A DNA stretch of 56,787 nt, filler included, from Theionarchaea archaeon (GTDB taxonomy: Archaea; Methanobacteriota_B; Thermococci; Methanofastidiosales; SZ-28-30): assembly GCA_018992565.1 (NCBI GenBank). It is 3 parts of 3 records of this genome, joined end to end, with 100 filler letters (N's around TTAATTAATTAA, not from the genome) between each part and the next. Parts side by side here need not be neighbours in the genome. Positions count along the whole stretch, not along the records: positions 38,602 to 56,787 come from JACVGW010000056.1; 2 more parts are not named here. One strand, written 5' to 3'. The first letter of the stretch is position 1, and every line of letters begins with the position of its first letter. Below are positions 39,001 to 48,000 of the stretch, in pieces. Position numbers: made by a program.

Positions 39001-42000
39001 CGACGTCAATACAAGTAATATTCCAATATTCCTGTTCTCAAAGGGAATCTTCCCCATATCTTTCAACATATTACCAACAGTGTCCTCACGAACAGGTTCC
39101 TCCTTGAACTTCACAAAAAAGACGATAGCTGCTGCCACAAGAACCCCCGGGATAGCCCACAACATGTACGTGGTCCTCCATCCCAGCCCCAGGCCCACCA
39201 GGGAAATCCCCAGGACAGCCACCATCTCCGGAGAAGCCAGAAATCCCGTAAGGATGGGAGTAATGGCCTGTCCCATATTTCCCACAATCCCATGGATACC
39301 CATTGCCTTGGAGCGGTGTGCCTCAAATGCCTTAGAAACCAGTGATATCCCCGAAGGGTGGTACAGTCCTGCGCCAATACCCATGACAACAAAAAACAGG
39401 GCAAGCGTGGTCTTATTCCAGGCAAGCCCCACCAGGACTGCAGCTGCAGCACACAATACCATGGACAGAGCTGCCACCTTCCTGGAGCCAATCCGGTCAG
39501 AAAGAAATCCCGCAGGAATAGCATTGAGCCCGAATAAAAACCCAAGGAGAGAAGCAATGGCCCCGATCTCCGCAAAACTCATATCAAATTCTGCCATTAT
39601 CAAGGGCATCAGTATAGAAAATACTATCACATACGAATGATCAAGTGAATGAGCTAGTGATGTGAACACCAGGACTGACTTATGGTTCATACAATCACCT
39701 TTTAACCCACCTTAAAAACCTTGTGGATAGAAGATAACCAGGAAATGACCACTCACACTCACTCGCCACCCCTCAATGTCCCCATTTTTATAACTTTCTA
39801 CTGCGAAAAGTTTATATATAACCATCAACAATGAGGACTGCAGGAAAGGTGAGATGTTTTTCCTCCTTACTCTCCTTTCCTTTTTTTTCACCACTGCATC
39901 TCCTGATATTCCGAGTACCTGGTCTCATGTGCCCAGCTCTTCCTTTCATCCAGTTTACTTCTCACGATTCCTTTGTAAGAGCCAGAACGTGGTCTCAAGC
40001 ACTCGGTCTCCATGAAAACAGCTCTATCATGTCTTCATCAGAGCCACCTTGATCGTCCACAGGAGACTGAATACCTTTATATCTTATACCTCATTATATT
40101 CTGTGGAAACGAGGTAGAAGAGGAAGGGAACCTGAAGGAGGGTCTCATGTGACTTTAAATGACACTGAAAAGAAGCTTCTCACCCTGCTTGGAAAAGATT
40201 GCTCACTTTCCAGGTCAAGACTGCAGCACTACCTGCAGTACAGAAGGATGAACACCGTGAGCAGCAAGATAGCCCACCTGAGAAAGGCAGGGTACATGAG
40301 AGGACCCTTCTACCATATTAACCTGAATGCAGTGGGGAAAAATCGCGTTTACAACATACTGGCTGAAATCAGGTTCGATCCCAGAGAGTACAGTTCTGCC
40401 TTTGAACTGGTCACTGTCATTGACTGCTGGGAATGGATTTTTCCTACCATGCAGGGAGATACTCTCTTTATTGTTTTCAGGTCCAACTACTATGCGTACC
40501 TCACACGGCTCCTTTCCCTCATCAAACAGGCGGGACTCATAACGTATGAGGTGCATTCTTCCCAGAATCGATGGTTTGTCCAGAATCCTGATTTCTTTGG
40601 GGAGATAATCCCGCAGGTCTCCAGTGGGTTCAAGGATGTGACTATTGACCTGGCGTACCCGGGACCGCACTCTGATATTTCGTGGAGGTTCATTGACCTG
40701 CAGGTGATGCAGTACTTGCAGGTGAAAACGTGTACTATCAGTGAAATACAGCGGATAGAAAAAAGAGTCTATGGACGGTTCTGGAGGCGCAGCCAGATCA
40801 AGTACAGCATGGAGAAGATCTGTGGGGCTGGAATTGCAGAAAGAAAACACTATAATATCTCTCCATTCCCCTGGGTTGAGAGCCTGGGGTTCTTACTACT
40901 GGTGGAAGGTGATCCAGAGGACGTGGTCAGATTCGTGGTGAATTTTGGCCAGGACTGCAGGATGTACAAAGCATATACAGTGTGCAGGGACATGGGATTT
41001 ATCTGGTGTGTCACAAGTCCACAGGTAGGACCTGAATTGATGAATACACTTGGGAGTCTCTCTCCACGGATTAATATCCGATGTCTCCAGCTGAAATCTG
41101 TCCACGACCCCCTGAAAAGGTCATTCAATGACGAGCACTTTGACATTGAGACGCAGCGGTGGACATTTCCCTTTGCGAAGTATAAGGAGGAGATCCAGGC
41201 CCTCATTGAAAAAAAAGAAAAATGAAAAGAGAGTACGTTCTTTTTCATGCCTGATCTAGCAGGGACTGCCAGGGTCATCTCCTGGTTTTCCCCCTGAGGG
41301 GGTCACTCCCCCGAGAACATAAGGCAATCCAAGTGCGCCCATAGTGTACATTTTCTCACCTCATATGTCAATTTGAATACATATATAAAATCAATTTTGA
41401 ATTTATCAAGAAATAGTTGTTTTATTGTAATTTGCTTCAATAGAAGTCCTGATTCTTAATAGTTGTCTCATTTCTTGAGATTCTACCACTAGAAATGTTG
41501 GTACAGAGGACCTGCTTCACCTTGCGAATACGATCACTCTGTATTCTCAGGAGAATCGTCCAGTACCATGAGATCTTCCATCTTGAATGTGGAGAGCTCT
41601 CTGTATCTCTTCTCAATCTCCTGTGACGTCCCCGTCTGCAGTGCCCGTAGATACGCCCCTTCCAGGAAGTCTCCTTTTTTCTTTCTGTCTATCTGCCTGA
41701 TGTTGTGTTCCACTTTTTTCATATCTGCAGGTTCATGCATTTCCCTGTAGAGGGCCAGGCTTTCCTCCCACACCGTCCTGGCTCTGTCCAAATCTTCCTT
41801 TCGGGCATAGCAGAGCCCTTCATTGTAGAGGGTTGAGGCTCTCCGGGATATGTTGCTACCTGCCAGGGTGAGGGCCTCAGAGAACAAGGTCAATGCTTCA
41901 TCAACATCATCATTCATGTAGAGACAGGAACCCAGATTGTTCAGAATATCAGACAGCAGCAACGGATCCTGGAAGGTCTGGAGAATCCTCTGGCACCTCT

Positions 42001-45000: not shown

Positions 45001-48000
45001 AGCATTCAAAGTGAGAGACATAACAGAGAGAGATAGAGACCACGGAGAAAGCCTGGTGGCCTCTCTGTCCTCAGCGTATGACAGCCTCTCTGATGACGCA
45101 AAGACCCTCTTTGGTGTGCTTTCTCTTCTGCCTGCTGGAGCGCAGGAGGAGATGCTCACGTCTATATGGGGGGATATGGCCTGGGAGTACATCCGTGAGT
45201 TGAATGAAGCCTCACTGGTGGAAATGAGAAATCGGCGGGCCACCCTGCTGCCACCTGTCAGGCTCTTCGCCACCACTGTGACAGGTGACGAGATCAGAAC
45301 CCAGTATGGCCCCAGGATTCTGGAATTCTTGGGAACGTACGTGAAGACACTGTACAAACACCATACTGCAGGTGACGCACGGGAGTATCGGTCCTGTTTT
45401 TCTGTGGATGAACCAAATCTCCGTTCTGCCATTCATCTCCCCTGTGAACCTCCTCAAACAGAAAAGGAACGTTCAGCCATTGGATTGCTGTCACCTCGCC
45501 TCATGTACCTATATTTCTACCATGACAGGCTAAAGGAGGCCAGAGAAGTTGGCGAGAGAATGTTATCTATCCTCGAGGGACTGCATGATCACGTGGGTAG
45601 GGCAGATACATTGCTGGTCTTGGGACTGGTTTCGGTGGAGAGAGGTGACCTAGAAGAGGCCCGATTGCAGTATGAAACAGCTCTCTCAATCTATGAGGAG
45701 GTTAGAGATACTAAGTGGGAGGCAAACACGCTCTGGAAACTGGGCGGGCTCTTCATGCTGTCAGGTGATTTTGGAAAGGCTCAATCCACGTATGAAAGAG
45801 CTCTCAGGATGTATCATCAGATTGATGAGAACCTGGGGGAAGCAAATATCCTCCAGGACCTGGGTGACCTCCTCATGCTGTCAGGTGATTNNNNNNNNNN
45901 NNNNNNNNNNNNNNNNNNNNNNNNNNNNNNNNNNNNNNNNNNNNNNNNNNNNNNNNNNNNNNNNNNNNNNNNNNNNNNNNNNNNNNNNNNCACTATAGAG
46001 CAGTGCAGTGGCTCATCCTGTACGCAGTTCAGCTCAGAACTCAGAATCTTGAAGAAGGTGCCATGATGTGCCTGGAATATGCTGGAGAATTTGCAGCCAG
46101 AGCACGAAATCAGTCCCTTCAATCACAAGTTGAGCAGCACCTCGGGAAAACATAGTACAGAATCCTCCGTACATATCCTTGTAGAATACTACGAGTTCAC
46201 TCTGCATTCTCGCTTTCGAACTGGAACGAATTTGAACGGGGAAGAAAATGAAGGAAAAAATTGCCTTTCTTTACTGTCATGAAGGCAGCCAGTTCTTGAT
46301 GCTGTTGGAAGCCTCATCTACCAACGTTGTAGAACACTGCAGCAATTCAGTAGCCTCTCCCAGGTACTGAGCAGCCAATGTGGCAGCCGAGTTGAGGTCT
46401 TGTCCGTTCGGTGGAGATACCTCCTTTTTGAGTGTTTCAGCTCTTTTTCTAAGATCAACTTTCATCCCGTGGTATATGTCTGCTCTTTCAATGAATTTCC
46501 TTCTAAATTCAACTGCACGTGAGCTATTCTTTCCAATCTCCTCATCATATGCCAGCAAGATATTGTAGGTAAGCCCGATCATGCCTCCTGGATGCTCTGG
46601 TTCCGTCGGCCACACCTCTTCGGTAACCGCCCTGTTTTCCAGGTTGCAGGCACTTATAACTACTGAGCAGCAGCTCTTTATAGTGTTCTCGTCATGAGAG
46701 CCTGCATCGCGTGCCTGTGTGGCGAAGCCATTGATATTGATTTCCGATCGTGAGGCCTCGCTTGGGACACCTGCTGAATCAGAGGCCATCTCCATGCAGC
46801 GGATGGTGATTTCTCCCATAGGCATTGGCCTCTTTTCATTGGGTGTAGTCCCGGGTCCGTGAAGACTGGTAAATCCTGACTCAGGAGAGCTCGGTTCCTC
46901 GTAGACACTTCTTGCCATCCCAAGAATGTTCTGCGCCAAATCCACAACAGAAACCACAAGACTGTCACTGTCTATTCCTATTTCAGAAACAGAGGCTACC
47001 ATTTCCTCTTTCACGTAGTCTCTCCCGGGACTCGCTATTGCTGCCTCTGTTCTCGGAATAATACTGAATAAAAGGTAGGAGACTGTCTGCATGGTATTTC
47101 TCAACCGTTTAAGGACTGCCTCTGCATCCAGCCTGATCTTCTTTTCTGCACCATCAATAAGCTGTCTATTGAACCTTCTAGTTTCTCTTTGAAATTCTTC
47201 TGTCACGTTCTCACCTCCTTTGCAGCGATACCAGAGTGATCCAACCCCCATCAACTTCAGTATGAAAATGATCACAGCTGCCAGGAGTAATCCCAAGAAA
47301 ACAGCAGATATATCCCAGACCACTGTCATACACGAGACGCTGAGAGCCTCTTCCTCAGCCCCACAGAACCCCTGCAATGCAGTATGAAGATCTGCCCGTA
47401 AAGCAGCACAGGAAAAAGCCATCACCAGCCCGTCATATGTAGCAGCTGCACTCCACCTGAGCACATCCGCCTTGGGACCTGAGAATCCAGTAACCCACAG
47501 GTTCAGCCTCTCATTCAGAACTATTTCTGTGAAAAAGACAGCGGAAATAAGACAAACTATGTCTGTGCCGCAGCACGTAACCTGCATAAATCCAGCACAT
47601 TCCATCCTGATACCTCCTGCTAATTGCCGCGCAATTCTCTTCATACTTCTACTGGTTATTGGAAATATTTCTATTTAAGCCTTTCTACTTTCTGAATATT
47701 CAATTACCGGACTATTGAATGAACTTTAACAGGGTTGATGTTCACACTGTGAAGAGAAATAGATAGCTCTTGCATGAGATGTTGGCAGCCTGGAGTAATC
47801 TCGAGAAAGAAAAGTGAAGGAAAGACTGAATTTCAGGTGCACAGGTGGACCATTTGTGAGAATGGCGACTTTTCGCGGAATGAAGCAGATTTCTCTTAAT
47901 CTAATTTCTCAACAATAAGGAGGAAATCTACACGATGCCACCACAAGAATTTTAGAGTAATATTCGGGACTATTGCCACGACCTCTCCTTTCAGGCCATT

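What a model noticed while it worked through the whole genome (the two positions that open the first line are those of the whole stretch)
40149..46066. Three wHTH-TPR regulator cassettes each followed by a conserved 31-aa peptide gene (RRNPP-like)
Three paralogous cassettes (C144:1548-4849, C17:5706-9083, C115:6081-9739) each hold a 453-461-aa protein with winged-helix domains and a C-terminal TPR array (g02578, g00274, g01967), a 123-140-aa partner (g02579, g00275, g01966) and, downstream on the same strand, an uncalled or mis-called 31-32-aa ORF (C144:2655-2750 [sequence left out]; C17:6796-6894 [sequence left out]; C115:7213-7308 [sequence left out]), convergent with a 360-aa wHTH protein. 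I read them as receptor-peptide pairs of the RRNPP/Rgg kind: cytoplasmic TPR receptors sensing their own short peptide. They would be the first peptide-based quorum-sensing-type cassettes proposed for Archaea.
Evidence so far: Calls 61,96,97: gene order; PadR/HTH and TPR_12 (E 3e-13) hits in g00274; peptide ORFs with SD. Calls 98,99: sister species G032 has all three cassettes, receptors 80-84% identical, each cognate peptide kept in place ([sequence left out]; [sequence left out]; [sequence left out]): C-terminal halves identical, N-terminal halves vary. Receptor family in 3 of 34 Methanofastidiosales genomes (the genus only) and 68 metagenome clusters, the named ones Theionarchaea/Methanofastidiosia. 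AlphaFold model pLDDT 82.5; Foldseek hits peptide-binding TPRs (LGN, KLC) and at ranks 39/43 NprR 5dbk and RapF 3ulq. Two of three cassettes are divergently next to a CHAT/NB-ARC/TPR gene: g00276 on C17 and an uncal [...]
(Added by a program. Inside this text positions count along the whole contig: they may not be those of the stretch shown here. "Call 12" and the like, gene names such as g00115 and contig names such as C1 are that model's own, and its searches are not shown. The text may have been shortened before it was handed on; [...] marks where a part breaks off. The agent that wrote the report below was given it as the finding of a first reader that could run no searches.)

Follow-up and report, generated by a model that had tools for sequence, protein, structure and literature searches.

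The report
Small archaeal peptide paired with regulators
A real, conserved 31-residue peptide gene in an uncultured archaeon lies between two putative gene regulators, and models suggest it plugs into one of them, which could be a new way for archaea to control genes with a self-made peptide.

Summary
Three paralogous cassettes exist. Each carries a 31-32-codon gene with its own Shine-Dalgarno site and TATA-like box. Between sister species the C-terminal half of the peptide shows 13 synonymous and 1 non-synonymous codon differences, so it is a real coding gene.

The peptide gene tracks the convergent 358-aa gene more closely than the wHTH-TPR gene. That 358-aa gene is next to all 14 distinct peptide loci; a TPR gene is next to 12 of them. 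Seven TPR loci have neither the peptide nor the 358-aa gene. The 358-aa protein folds as a fused tandem Lrp/AsnC-type regulator, with two HTH-RAM units.

A three-chain complex model scored 0.70, with 0.00 as the best control. It places the conserved peptide tail in the Lrp-like protein. By inference, the N-terminal half lies in the TPR groove.

The TPR domain matches generic TPRs, not RRNPP receptors, and its HTH is winged-helix. The short peptides have no export signal. However, small genes beside other Lrp-like paralogues have Sec-type signal peptides and a similar tail.

My best reading is a gene-encoded peptide effector of a tandem Lrp-like regulator, with the TPR protein as an accessory partner. 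Cell-to-cell signalling remains possible but is not shown.

The parts
40149..41225 (+). 358-aa fused tandem Lrp/AsnC-fold protein (two HTH-RAM units), convergent with the peptide gene. It is the predicted main binding partner of the peptide tail.
   Evidence: AF2 model has pLDDT 86 with HTH plus a beta-alpha-beta-beta-alpha-beta unit, twice. Foldseek matches NirDL 4ch7 over the full length at E 4e-9, followed by many Lrp/AsnC chains. Relatives are named Lrp/AsnC by their sources. No Pfam, NCBIfam or PADLOC hit.
41256..41351 (-). 31-codon peptide gene (MYTMGALGLPYVLGGVTPSGGKPGDDPGSPC). It has a conserved C-terminal tail and a variable N-terminal half.
   Evidence: Searches show the ORF. Orthologue in G032. 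Only synonymous changes occur in the tail. Family alignment A3. HMM hits occur only in this genus among 133 genomes.
41356..41362 (-). Shine-Dalgarno-like GAGGTGA, 4 nt before the ATG of the peptide gene.
   Evidence: Read. The same element sits before the peptide genes of 12 of the 13 loci aligned.
41381..41390 (-). TATA-like box (TTTTATATAT), about 30-40 nt upstream of the ATG. I read it as the peptide gene's own promoter.
   Evidence: Read. It is conserved in position in the alignment. The promoter function is inferred, not tested.
41466..41480 (.). Palindrome TCTCA-N5-TGAGA upstream of the peptide promoter; a candidate operator.
   Evidence: It is the only perfect match in the window. Genome-wide, 16 sites fit TCTYA-N5-TRAGA, and 3 of them lie upstream of the 3 peptide genes, against 0.13 expected. 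In the seven A-type and L028 rows the element sits at the same aligned place, perfect in 3 rows and with one mismatch in 4. The motif was derived from these same loci.
41534..42919 (-). 461-aa protein with two winged-helix domains, a long helix and a TPR array (about residues 239-394). It may be a second partner of the peptide.
   Evidence: Pfam. AF2 model has pLDDT 76.9, above 90 in the TPR part. Foldseek matches LGN, KLC and consensus TPRs. Groove residues 291-413 touch the peptide in the complex model.
43028..43450 (-). 140-aa helical partner protein of unknown family. It sits beside the TPR gene in most loci, in either order.
   Evidence: No Pfam, NCBIfam, PADLOC or Atlas lead. It is absent from the G032 C23 and L014/L022/L028 cassettes.
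43607..46066 (+). CHAT protease / NB-ARC NTPase / TPR protein of STAND type, divergent from the partner gene. An N run at 45891-45990 lies inside it.
   Evidence: Pfam gives CHAT E 3.9e-8, NB-ARC E 5.7e-7 and TPR_12 E 4.9e-16. A paralogue lies beside the C17 cassette. It is also present in L009, L012 and L031 and nearby in L022/L028.
46277..47644 (-). 455-aa protein with no family hit, convergent with the CHAT gene. It recurs beside CHAT genes in other loci.
   Evidence: Blast cluster F3 is found in C144, C17, L009, L011, L012, L028, L030 and L031. No Pfam, NCBIfam or PADLOC hit.

Best explanation
The 31-residue product is a gene-encoded effector, or small subunit, of the convergently encoded 358-aa regulator. 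That regulator is a fused tandem Lrp/AsnC-fold protein with two HTH-RAM units.

Proposed mechanism:
1. The peptide gene has its own promoter, with a palindromic candidate operator upstream.
2. The conserved C-terminal tail (P-x-G-G-x-[PE]-G-D-D-x-x-[TS]-P-x) inserts into the cleft between the two HTH-RAM halves. It would take the role that free amino acids play in ordinary Lrp-type regulators.
3. Binding would change how the regulator binds DNA or assembles. This would give a feedback loop on the peptide gene and on neighbouring genes.
4. The N-terminal segment (around L-P-D-L-L-G) may be held by the TPR groove of the wHTH-TPR protein. The peptide could then bridge two DNA-binding proteins.

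Shown here: the gene is real and under purifying selection; the pairing with the Lrp-like gene is conserved; the fold assignments are supported.

Inferred: binding, the operator, the regulatory outcome, and the TPR contact. Whether the peptide ever leaves the cell is open.
For: Coding:
- C-terminal halves show 13 synonymous against 1 non-synonymous codon differences between G000 and G032. N-terminal halves show 9 against 10.
- The stop codon changes from TAG to TAA in pair A.

Linkage:
- All 14 distinct short-peptide loci have the Lrp-like gene convergent. By my count from the coordinates, stop codons are 3-36 nt apart in 13 loci and 101 nt apart in one.
- This includes two G033 loci with no TPR gene in the fetched 10-14 kb.
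- On C115 the TPR/partner order is different, yet the peptide/Lrp pair is unchanged.
- No peptide match at E<1 occurs in the 7 TPR loci that lack the Lrp-like gene.

Fold:
- AF2 pLDDT 86, two HTH-RAM units.
- Foldseek: NirDL E 4e-9, then Lrp/AsnC chains.

Binding model:
- ipSAE was 0.01, 0.70 and 0.70 in three runs, median 0.70. The best of 3 controls was 0.00.
- Two controls replaced the peptide. One kept the peptide and TPR domain and replaced the Lrp-like chain.
- The mark was reached by 116 of 157 solved complexes and 2 of 215 mismatched pairs in the tool's calibration.
- Runs agree in at least 28% of contacts, and the partner pLDDT is at least 36.
- All 25 least-error pairs join peptide residues 22-31 to the Lrp-like chain.

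The tail as the functional unit:
- A 47-aa relative carries the tail motif twice in tandem.
- Tails differ between paralogues and are kept between orthologues.

Candidate operator: 3 of the 16 genome-wide palindrome sites lie upstream of the 3 peptide genes.
Against: - Binding rests on one in-silico job. It used three chains and shallow alignments of my own, unlike the tool's calibration. One of three runs scored 0.01, and the peptide's own fold is uncertain.
- Predicted contact residues are no more conserved than the rest of the protein. 15 of 34 contact residues are invariant in A/B-type rows, against 133 of 358 overall (p 0.46). They also do not change more often in the C-type copies.
- All loci come from one genus-level lineage, so synteny is partly shared descent.
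- Convergent orientation is unusual for functional partners.
- I found no such small ORF next to 5 of the 10 paralogues in G000.
- No sequence model of the Lrp/AsnC family hits the protein. Its best structural match is an enzyme, NirDL.
- There is no expression evidence for the peptide.
Confidence: 0.45

Rival explanations
1. The wHTH-TPR protein is an RRNPP/Rgg-like cytoplasmic receptor. The peptide is exported, matured, re-imported and sensed by the TPR domain, giving quorum sensing.
For: - The TPR gene lies next to 12 of 14 peptide loci.
- TPR groove residues 291-413 touch the peptide in the complex model.
- The genome has 9 matches to the Opp/Dpp-type binding-protein family PF00496, so peptide import is available.
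- The pattern of a conserved C-terminal part and a variable N-terminal part resembles pro-peptides whose active part is C-terminal. That comparison is recalled from the PapR and Phr literature, not tested here.
Against: - Seven distinct TPR loci carry no peptide.
- Two peptide loci have no TPR gene nearby.
- The TPR domain matches LGN, KLC and consensus TPRs. No RRNPP chain appears in the rows listed down to rank 49. In the profile search only Rap3T appears, at E 2.1e-4 over about 60 residues.
- The HTH is winged-helix: HTH_34 below cut-off and a MarR match at E 0.003.
- The short peptides have no N-terminal charge and a maximal 15-residue hydropathy of 0.46-1.17.
- No exporter or maturation protease is consistently linked.
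Confidence: 0.12
2. The peptide is a precursor of a modified peptide (RiPP-like). The 358-aa protein, whose best structural match is the enzyme NirDL, recognises or modifies its tail.
For: - The best Foldseek match of the 358-aa protein is siroheme decarboxylase NirDL, an enzyme with the Lrp fold.
- The tail sits in a cleft in the complex model.
- The tail is rich in Gly and Pro, and many members have Cys at two places.
Against: - The conservation pattern is the reverse of leader/core logic. Here the N-terminal half varies and the C-terminal half is conserved.
- The putative modifiable position 19 is C, S, Y, M or L. The last residue is C, G, S, T, V or L.
- No radical-SAM, YcaO, lanthipeptide or similar family appears among the neighbours scanned.
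- Ten paralogues per genome fit regulators better than one enzyme.
Confidence: 0.08
3. The cassette belongs to a conflict or defence module built around the CHAT/NB-ARC/TPR STAND protein. The peptide and the regulators would be its substrate, bait or transcriptional control.
For: - A CHAT/NB-ARC/TPR gene is divergent from the cassette in C144, C17, L009, L012 and L031, and nearby in L022/L028.
- A recurrent unknown protein (cluster F3) accompanies the CHAT gene.
- Gene content varies between sister species. G032 C23 lacks both the partner and the CHAT gene.
Against: - The CHAT gene is absent from the C115-type cassettes, from G032 C23 and from both G033 peptide loci.
- PADLOC gives no specific system, only mad8 at E 1.2e-4 and generic TPR.
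- There is no evidence that the peptide is a protease substrate.
Confidence: 0.1
4. The peptide is a small protein with an unrelated role. It stays beside the regulators only because the block is inherited as a unit in one young lineage.
For: - All loci come from one genus-level group: 3 of 133 genomes of the phylum.
- Only 5 small-protein clusters are found among 1.84 billion representatives.
- The conservation test of the predicted interface is neutral.
Against: - The pair survives three old duplications, with regulators 28-57% identical.
- It survives a change of order of the TPR/partner genes and separation from the TPR gene in G033.
- The complex model passes its controls.
Confidence: 0.2

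Closest known systems
RRNPP receptor-peptide systems (Rap/Phr, NprR/NprX, PlcR/PapR, PrgX, Rgg/SHP, AimR/AimP) of Bacillota and their phages
   Same: A small peptide gene lies beside a cytoplasmic regulator gene with a TPR array. The peptide is conserved between orthologues and differs between paralogous cassettes. Its conserved part is C-terminal.
   Different: - The system is archaeal.
- The HTH is winged-helix, not XRE type.
- The TPR domain is no closer to RRNPP than to generic TPRs.
- The short peptides have no export signal.
- The peptide gene follows a different gene, the Lrp-like one, more strictly.
- My search for 'RRNPP' plus 'archaea' listed 15 of 22 papers, none on an archaeal system by title or abstract start. 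In the one paper I opened with find, 'archaea' occurs only in the reference list.
Lrp/AsnC (feast/famine) regulators with RAM domains
   Same: The 358-aa protein has the wHTH plus RAM fold. Sources name its relatives Lrp/AsnC. Ligand-controlled DNA binding is the family's usual mode.
   Different: - The protein is a fused tandem of two units, 358 aa instead of about 15 kDa.
- No Pfam or NCBIfam model hits it.
- The proposed ligand is a gene-encoded peptide. [quoted passage not shown]
- A search for 'AsnC family', 'RAM domain' and 'peptide ligand' found no paper holding the third term together with either of the others.
NirDL / AhbAB siroheme decarboxylase
   Same: It is the best structural match and the only one covering the full length: a fused tandem of two Lrp-like units (4ch7, E 4e-9, TM 0.50/0.56).
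   Different: Identity is 11%. There are ten paralogues per genome and no haem-pathway context. I read the protein as a regulator, not an enzyme. Catalytic residues were not compared.
STAND NTPases with a protease effector and a TPR sensor (CHAT/NB-ARC/TPR)
   Same: The divergent 819-aa gene has this architecture.
   Different: It is a neighbour in some cassettes only, and no known defence system is matched. Any link to the peptide is conjecture.

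Membership tests
RRNPP | Cytoplasmic receptor with a C-terminal TPR-type peptide-binding domain | tested here: met
   TPR_2 E 3.5e-19 and TPR_12 E 9.5e-19. The AF2 TPR array spans about residues 239-394 with pLDDT above 90. This match is generic to TPR proteins.
RRNPP | TPR domain specifically related to RRNPP receptors rather than to TPRs in general | tested here: not met
   Foldseek rows listed down to rank 49 are LGN, BtubC, KLC, consensus TPR and a STAND TPR, with no RRNPP chain. In the PDB profile search of 60 sequences, only Rap3T appears, at E 2.1e-4 over residues 333-392.
RRNPP | N-terminal XRE-type HTH (or a phosphatase domain in Rap). This definition is recalled. 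| tested here: not met
   The model shows two winged-helix domains. HTH_34 scores E 2.1e-5, below its cut-off. A MarR-family chain matches at E 0.0033.
RRNPP | Cognate pro-peptide gene adjacent to the receptor gene | tested here: inconclusive
   The peptide gene is adjacent in 12 of 19 informative receptor loci and absent in 7. Two peptide loci have no receptor gene nearby.
RRNPP | Pro-peptide exported and matured (Sec signal or dedicated exporter, plus a protease) | tested here: not met
   The short forms have no N-terminal charge and a maximal hydropathy of 0.46-1.17. No exporter or protease is consistently linked. Leaderless export cannot be excluded.
RRNPP | Re-import by an oligopeptide permease | tested here: met
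   PF00496 has 9 matches in the genome, 8 over the cut-off. This is not specific: 11 of 14 control genomes also match.
RRNPP | Direct binding of the mature peptide in the TPR groove | not testable with these tools
   Only a model is available. In it the peptide touches groove residues within a three-chain complex. It needs biochemistry.
Lrp/AsnC (for the 358-aa protein) | wHTH followed by a RAM (beta-alpha-beta-beta-alpha-beta) domain | tested here: met
   The unit is present twice in tandem. Among the 31 Foldseek matches at E <= 0.001, most rows listed from rank 3 on are Lrp/AsnC chains.
Lrp/AsnC (for the 358-aa protein) | Match to the family's sequence models | tested here: not met
   0 families in Pfam at E <= 0.01 and 0 in NCBIfam at E <= 0.1. 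No PDB sequence match below E 0.17.
Lrp/AsnC (for the 358-aa protein) | Single-unit monomer of about 15 kDa assembling into dimers and octamers | tested here: not met
   The protein is a fused two-unit chain of 358 aa. The family description is from PMC2995911.
Lrp/AsnC (for the 358-aa protein) | Sequence-specific DNA binding modulated by a small effector | not testable with these tools
   A candidate operator is only inferred.
RiPP precursor | Conserved leader, variable core, and a maturase gene nearby | tested here: not met
   The conservation pattern is reversed. No maturase family appears among the neighbours scanned. Position 19 varies among C, S, Y, M and L.
STAND NTPase (for the 819-aa neighbour) | NB-ARC/NACHT NTPase core with effector and repeat sensor domains | tested here: met
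   CHAT E 3.9e-8, NB-ARC E 5.7e-7, NACHT E 1.6e-6 and TPR_12 E 4.9e-16.

The most novel reading that the evidence does not exclude
This would be an archaeal peptide-pheromone system of a new type. Small pro-peptides would be released and their conserved C-terminal tail taken up again. Some carry Sec signal peptides, some are leaderless, and one has two tandem tail copies. The cytoplasmic receptor would be a fused tandem Lrp/AsnC-fold regulator rather than a TPR protein. The wHTH-TPR protein would act as a co-receptor that reads the variable N-terminal part. Paralogous pairs in one genome (three short and at least two long forms in G000) would form separate channels.
Probability: 0.15. Interest if true: 0.9.

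Novelty: new variant of a known kind. Interest (0 to 1): 0.64.

Why it matters
Gene-encoded peptide ligands for transcription regulators are known mainly from Bacillota (RRNPP). [quoted passage not shown]

Here a verified small gene family is tied to two kinds of regulator in an uncultured archaeal genus. The model points to an Lrp/AsnC-fold protein as the binder. A 2010 review reports only amino-acid effectors for that family.

If binding is confirmed, three things follow:
- The ligand range of one of the most common archaeal regulator families would widen.
- A concrete and cheap test system would exist: a synthetic peptide plus two recombinant proteins.
- The signal-peptide-bearing paralogues would give a lead towards peptide signalling in archaea.

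It also shows that 30-codon genes missed by gene callers can be the centre of a conserved module.

Tried and rejected
- **RNA evidence.** One metatranscriptome run (X20) gave a single 299-nt contig at 40380-40678, inside the Lrp-like gene, and nothing over the peptide. Nothing can be concluded about expression.
- **TPR plus peptide alone.** The complex control that kept the peptide and the TPR domain but replaced the Lrp-like chain scored 0.00. As a test of TPR plus peptide alone this is 'no support'. It is not evidence against TPR binding.
- **Interface conservation.** The test was neutral. Contacts were invariant at 15 of 34 positions against 133 of 358 overall (p 0.46). Changes in the C-type copies were 10 of 15 against 65 of 118 (p 0.42) and 7 of 15 against 59 of 118 (p 1.0). 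One of 8 type-specific positions is a contact, against 0.76 expected.
- **Cys as a modified or catalytic residue.** Rejected, because position 19 is C, S, Y, M or L.
- **Palindrome in the window.** With up to 1 mismatch there are 3 matches against 5.3 expected, which is not above chance. Only its placement and its genome-wide rarity speak for it.
- **Signal-peptide peptidase (PF06550, E 2e-22).** It lies divergent from the G033 C7 peptide. One match per genome scores above E 1e-9, and G000 has a second, weak one (E 4.4e-5). It lies elsewhere in G000 and G032, so the adjacency is probably a coincidence.
- **Partner protein.** Pfam, NCBIfam, PADLOC and the ESM Atlas gave nothing usable.
- **Searches for more peptide relatives.**
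  - The search for related loci could not use alignment A3 or the 47-aa protein.
  - A degenerate DNA pattern for the tail found 0 places in genome contigs.
- **Literature.** Searches on Theionarchaea plus Lrp (1 unrelated paper) and Methanofastidiosa plus regulator plus small peptide (no listed paper holding the first term) gave nothing on these genes.

Full report
**What is in the window**

Positions 38602-56787 are contig C144 of a 2.8-Mb, 154-contig genome. The layout around the finding is as follows:
- On the minus strand: a 140-aa gene (43028-43450), a 461-aa gene (41534-42919) and a 31-codon ORF (41256-41351).
- Convergent with the small ORF: a 358-aa gene on the plus strand (40149-41225).
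- Divergent from the 140-aa gene: an 819-aa gene (43607-46066).

Pfam finds TPR repeats (E 1e-19) and a sub-threshold winged helix in the 461-aa protein. It finds CHAT, NB-ARC and TPR in the 819-aa protein. It finds nothing in the other three.

tblastn and ORF reading confirm paralogous cassettes on C17 and C115. On C115 the order is receptor, partner, about 800 nt, then the peptide.

**The small ORFs are genes**

- Each has GAGGTGA-like spacing before the ATG and a TATA-like box 30-40 nt upstream.
- The sister species G032 keeps all three.
- In the three orthologue pairs, the C-terminal halves differ by 13 synonymous and 1 non-synonymous codons. The N-terminal halves differ by 9 and 10.
- Twelve aligned members share P18, G20, G21, G24 and P30, and nearly all share D25.
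- Position 19 is C in most members, but S, Y, M or L in others. It is therefore not an essential nucleophile.
- A profile of the peptides finds matches in 3 of 133 genomes of the phylum, all in one genus.
- It finds five small proteins of 30-47 aa among 1.84 billion representatives. One of them carries the tail motif twice in tandem.

**Which neighbour does the peptide follow?**

I fetched 21 metagenome loci and 4 genome loci with the receptor and annotated them. I merged duplicate records by hand and set aside two contigs that end at the receptor (L017, L023) and a weak partial hit (L008). That leaves 19 informative receptor loci.
- Twelve carry the peptide and the 358-aa gene. One of these, L012, has two peptide genes.
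- Seven carry neither. Six of these seven have the order receptor then partner (L026 has no partner hit), and five of them lie beside a TrkA_C-domain gene.

In the third species, G033, the only receptor gene is of the second kind. Two peptide genes nevertheless sit convergent to 358-aa paralogues on other contigs, with no receptor gene in 10-14 kb.

So the 358-aa gene accompanies 14 of 14 peptide loci, and the TPR gene accompanies 12 of 14.

**What the 358-aa protein is**

- The AF2 model (pLDDT 86) shows an HTH followed by a beta-alpha-beta-beta-alpha-beta domain, twice.
- Foldseek gives the fused tandem NirDL over the full length (E 4e-9), followed by many Lrp/AsnC regulators.
- 102 related clusters exist. 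The named ones are called Lrp/AsnC regulators or hypothetical proteins. Where an organism is given it is Theionarchaea or Methanofastidiosia.
- The genome has ten paralogues, one of them at window 37142-38386. The family is in 3 of 4 genomes tested, all in the genus.

**Binding model**

One three-chain job was run with TPR residues 190-461, the 358-aa protein and the peptide, each given as an alignment.
- The three runs scored 0.01, 0.70 and 0.70.
- All three controls scored 0.00. Two replaced the peptide with other 31-aa proteins. One replaced the Lrp-like chain.
- The tool's verdict is that the model supports binding but does not show it. The mark was reached by 116 of 157 solved complexes and 2 of 215 mismatched pairs.
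- Runs agree in at least 28% of contacts, and the partner pLDDT is at least 36. The job is unlike the tool's calibration.
- All 25 least-error pairs join peptide residues 22-31 to the Lrp-like chain.
- Peptide residues 4-14 are also listed as interface, and so are TPR groove residues 291-413. I infer that these two sets touch each other.
- A conservation test of the contact residues was neutral.

**Is the TPR protein an RRNPP receptor?**

- Its model (pLDDT 76.9) has two winged helices, a long helix and a TPR array.
- Structural neighbours are LGN, KLC, BtubC and consensus TPRs.
- In a profile search of PDB sequences, the only RRNPP member is Rap3T, at E 2.1e-4 over 60 residues.
- The short peptides have no signal-like N-terminus.

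**Hints that the family may include exported members**

- Next to the first Lrp-like copy on C115 lies a convergent 64-codon gene. It has a charged N-terminus, a hydrophobic stretch (hydropathy 2.27) and a conserved tail ending P-G-S-D-P-E-H-P-K.
- Against G032, that tail shows only synonymous changes while the middle part varies. G033 has it too.
- A 64-codon ORF upstream of the C147 paralogue has a similar N-terminus and a tail close to the short peptides. It matches the peptide profile at E 0.008 for the genome.
- Genome-wide, 12 of 65,366 ORFs end in P-G-x-x-P-x-x-P, and 3 of those lie within 500 nt of Lrp-like paralogues.

**Candidate operator**

TCTCA-N5-TGAGA lies at 41466-41480. Sites fitting TCTYA-N5-TRAGA number 16 in the genome, and 3 of them lie upstream of the 3 peptide genes. 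The element keeps its aligned place in related loci. The motif was derived from these same loci.

**Verdict**

The RRNPP reading is partly supported as an analogy and fails as a claim of membership.

The most likely mechanism is a gene-encoded peptide effector of a tandem Lrp-like regulator, with the TPR protein as a possible second partner. Secretion is unproven.

Literature seen:
- Search listings.
- Passages of PMC13464002, PMC12700828 and PMC2995911, found with the find function.
- None describes such a system. No supplements were read.

Noticed in passing
window 37142-38386 (-): A further paralogue of the tandem Lrp-like family (414 aa, on contig C142) lies in the same window, with no Pfam hit. 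No tail-type small ORF was seen beside it.
   Followed up: partly
G000 C115:5746-5940 (-), outside the window; L049 2592-2852: A 64-codon gene with a Sec-like signal peptide and a conserved tail ending PGSDPEHPK, convergent to the first of two tandem Lrp-like genes. It is kept in G032 and G033, with only synonymous changes in the tail.
   Followed up: partly
G000 C147:58084-58278 (-), outside the window; L041 1498-1692: A 64-codon ORF with a hydrophobic N-terminus and a tail close to the short peptides, divergent from another Lrp-like paralogue. No orthologue was found to test whether it is coding.
   Followed up: partly
G000 C29:5649-5738 (-), outside the window: A 29-codon ORF with the same GAGGTGA-type ribosome site and a Gly/Pro tail (ends PGAGPGNPT). 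It is convergent to a short ORF that looks HTH-like by eye and is interrupted by an N run.
   Followed up: no
L012 7443-7649 and 8224-8319: One metagenome locus carries two peptide genes in tandem between the TPR gene and the Lrp-like gene.
   Followed up: no
protein P0106 (representative library): A 47-aa relative holds two tandem copies of the 15-residue tail motif. Its genomic context could not be fetched.
   Followed up: partly
window 46277-47644 (-): A 455-aa protein with no family hit recurs convergent to the CHAT/NB-ARC/TPR gene in eight loci (blast cluster F3).
   Followed up: partly
L071 7950-8753 (G033 C7): A signal-peptide peptidase / presenilin-type gene (PF06550) is divergent from one peptide gene. 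The same single-copy gene lies elsewhere in G000 and G032.
   Followed up: yes
window 43245: All three DNA runs laid on the stretch lack 3 bases here, inside the partner gene. This is an in-frame length variant relative to the window.
   Followed up: no
window 41302: One DNA run reads A for G. In the peptide this changes Thr17 to Ile, a position that also varies between relatives.
   Followed up: no
window 38602-39690 (-) and 8175-9278 (+): An MFS transporter gene (E 1e-43) is divergent from the Lrp-like gene on C144; no cluster shared with it was found in the other loci compared. An Opp/Dpp-type binding-protein gene lies on contig C141.
   Followed up: partly
L028 1174-4941: A 1255-aa beta-propeller / FG-GAP protein with a C-terminal CHAT domain lies upstream of the cassette in one metagenome locus.
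   Followed up: no
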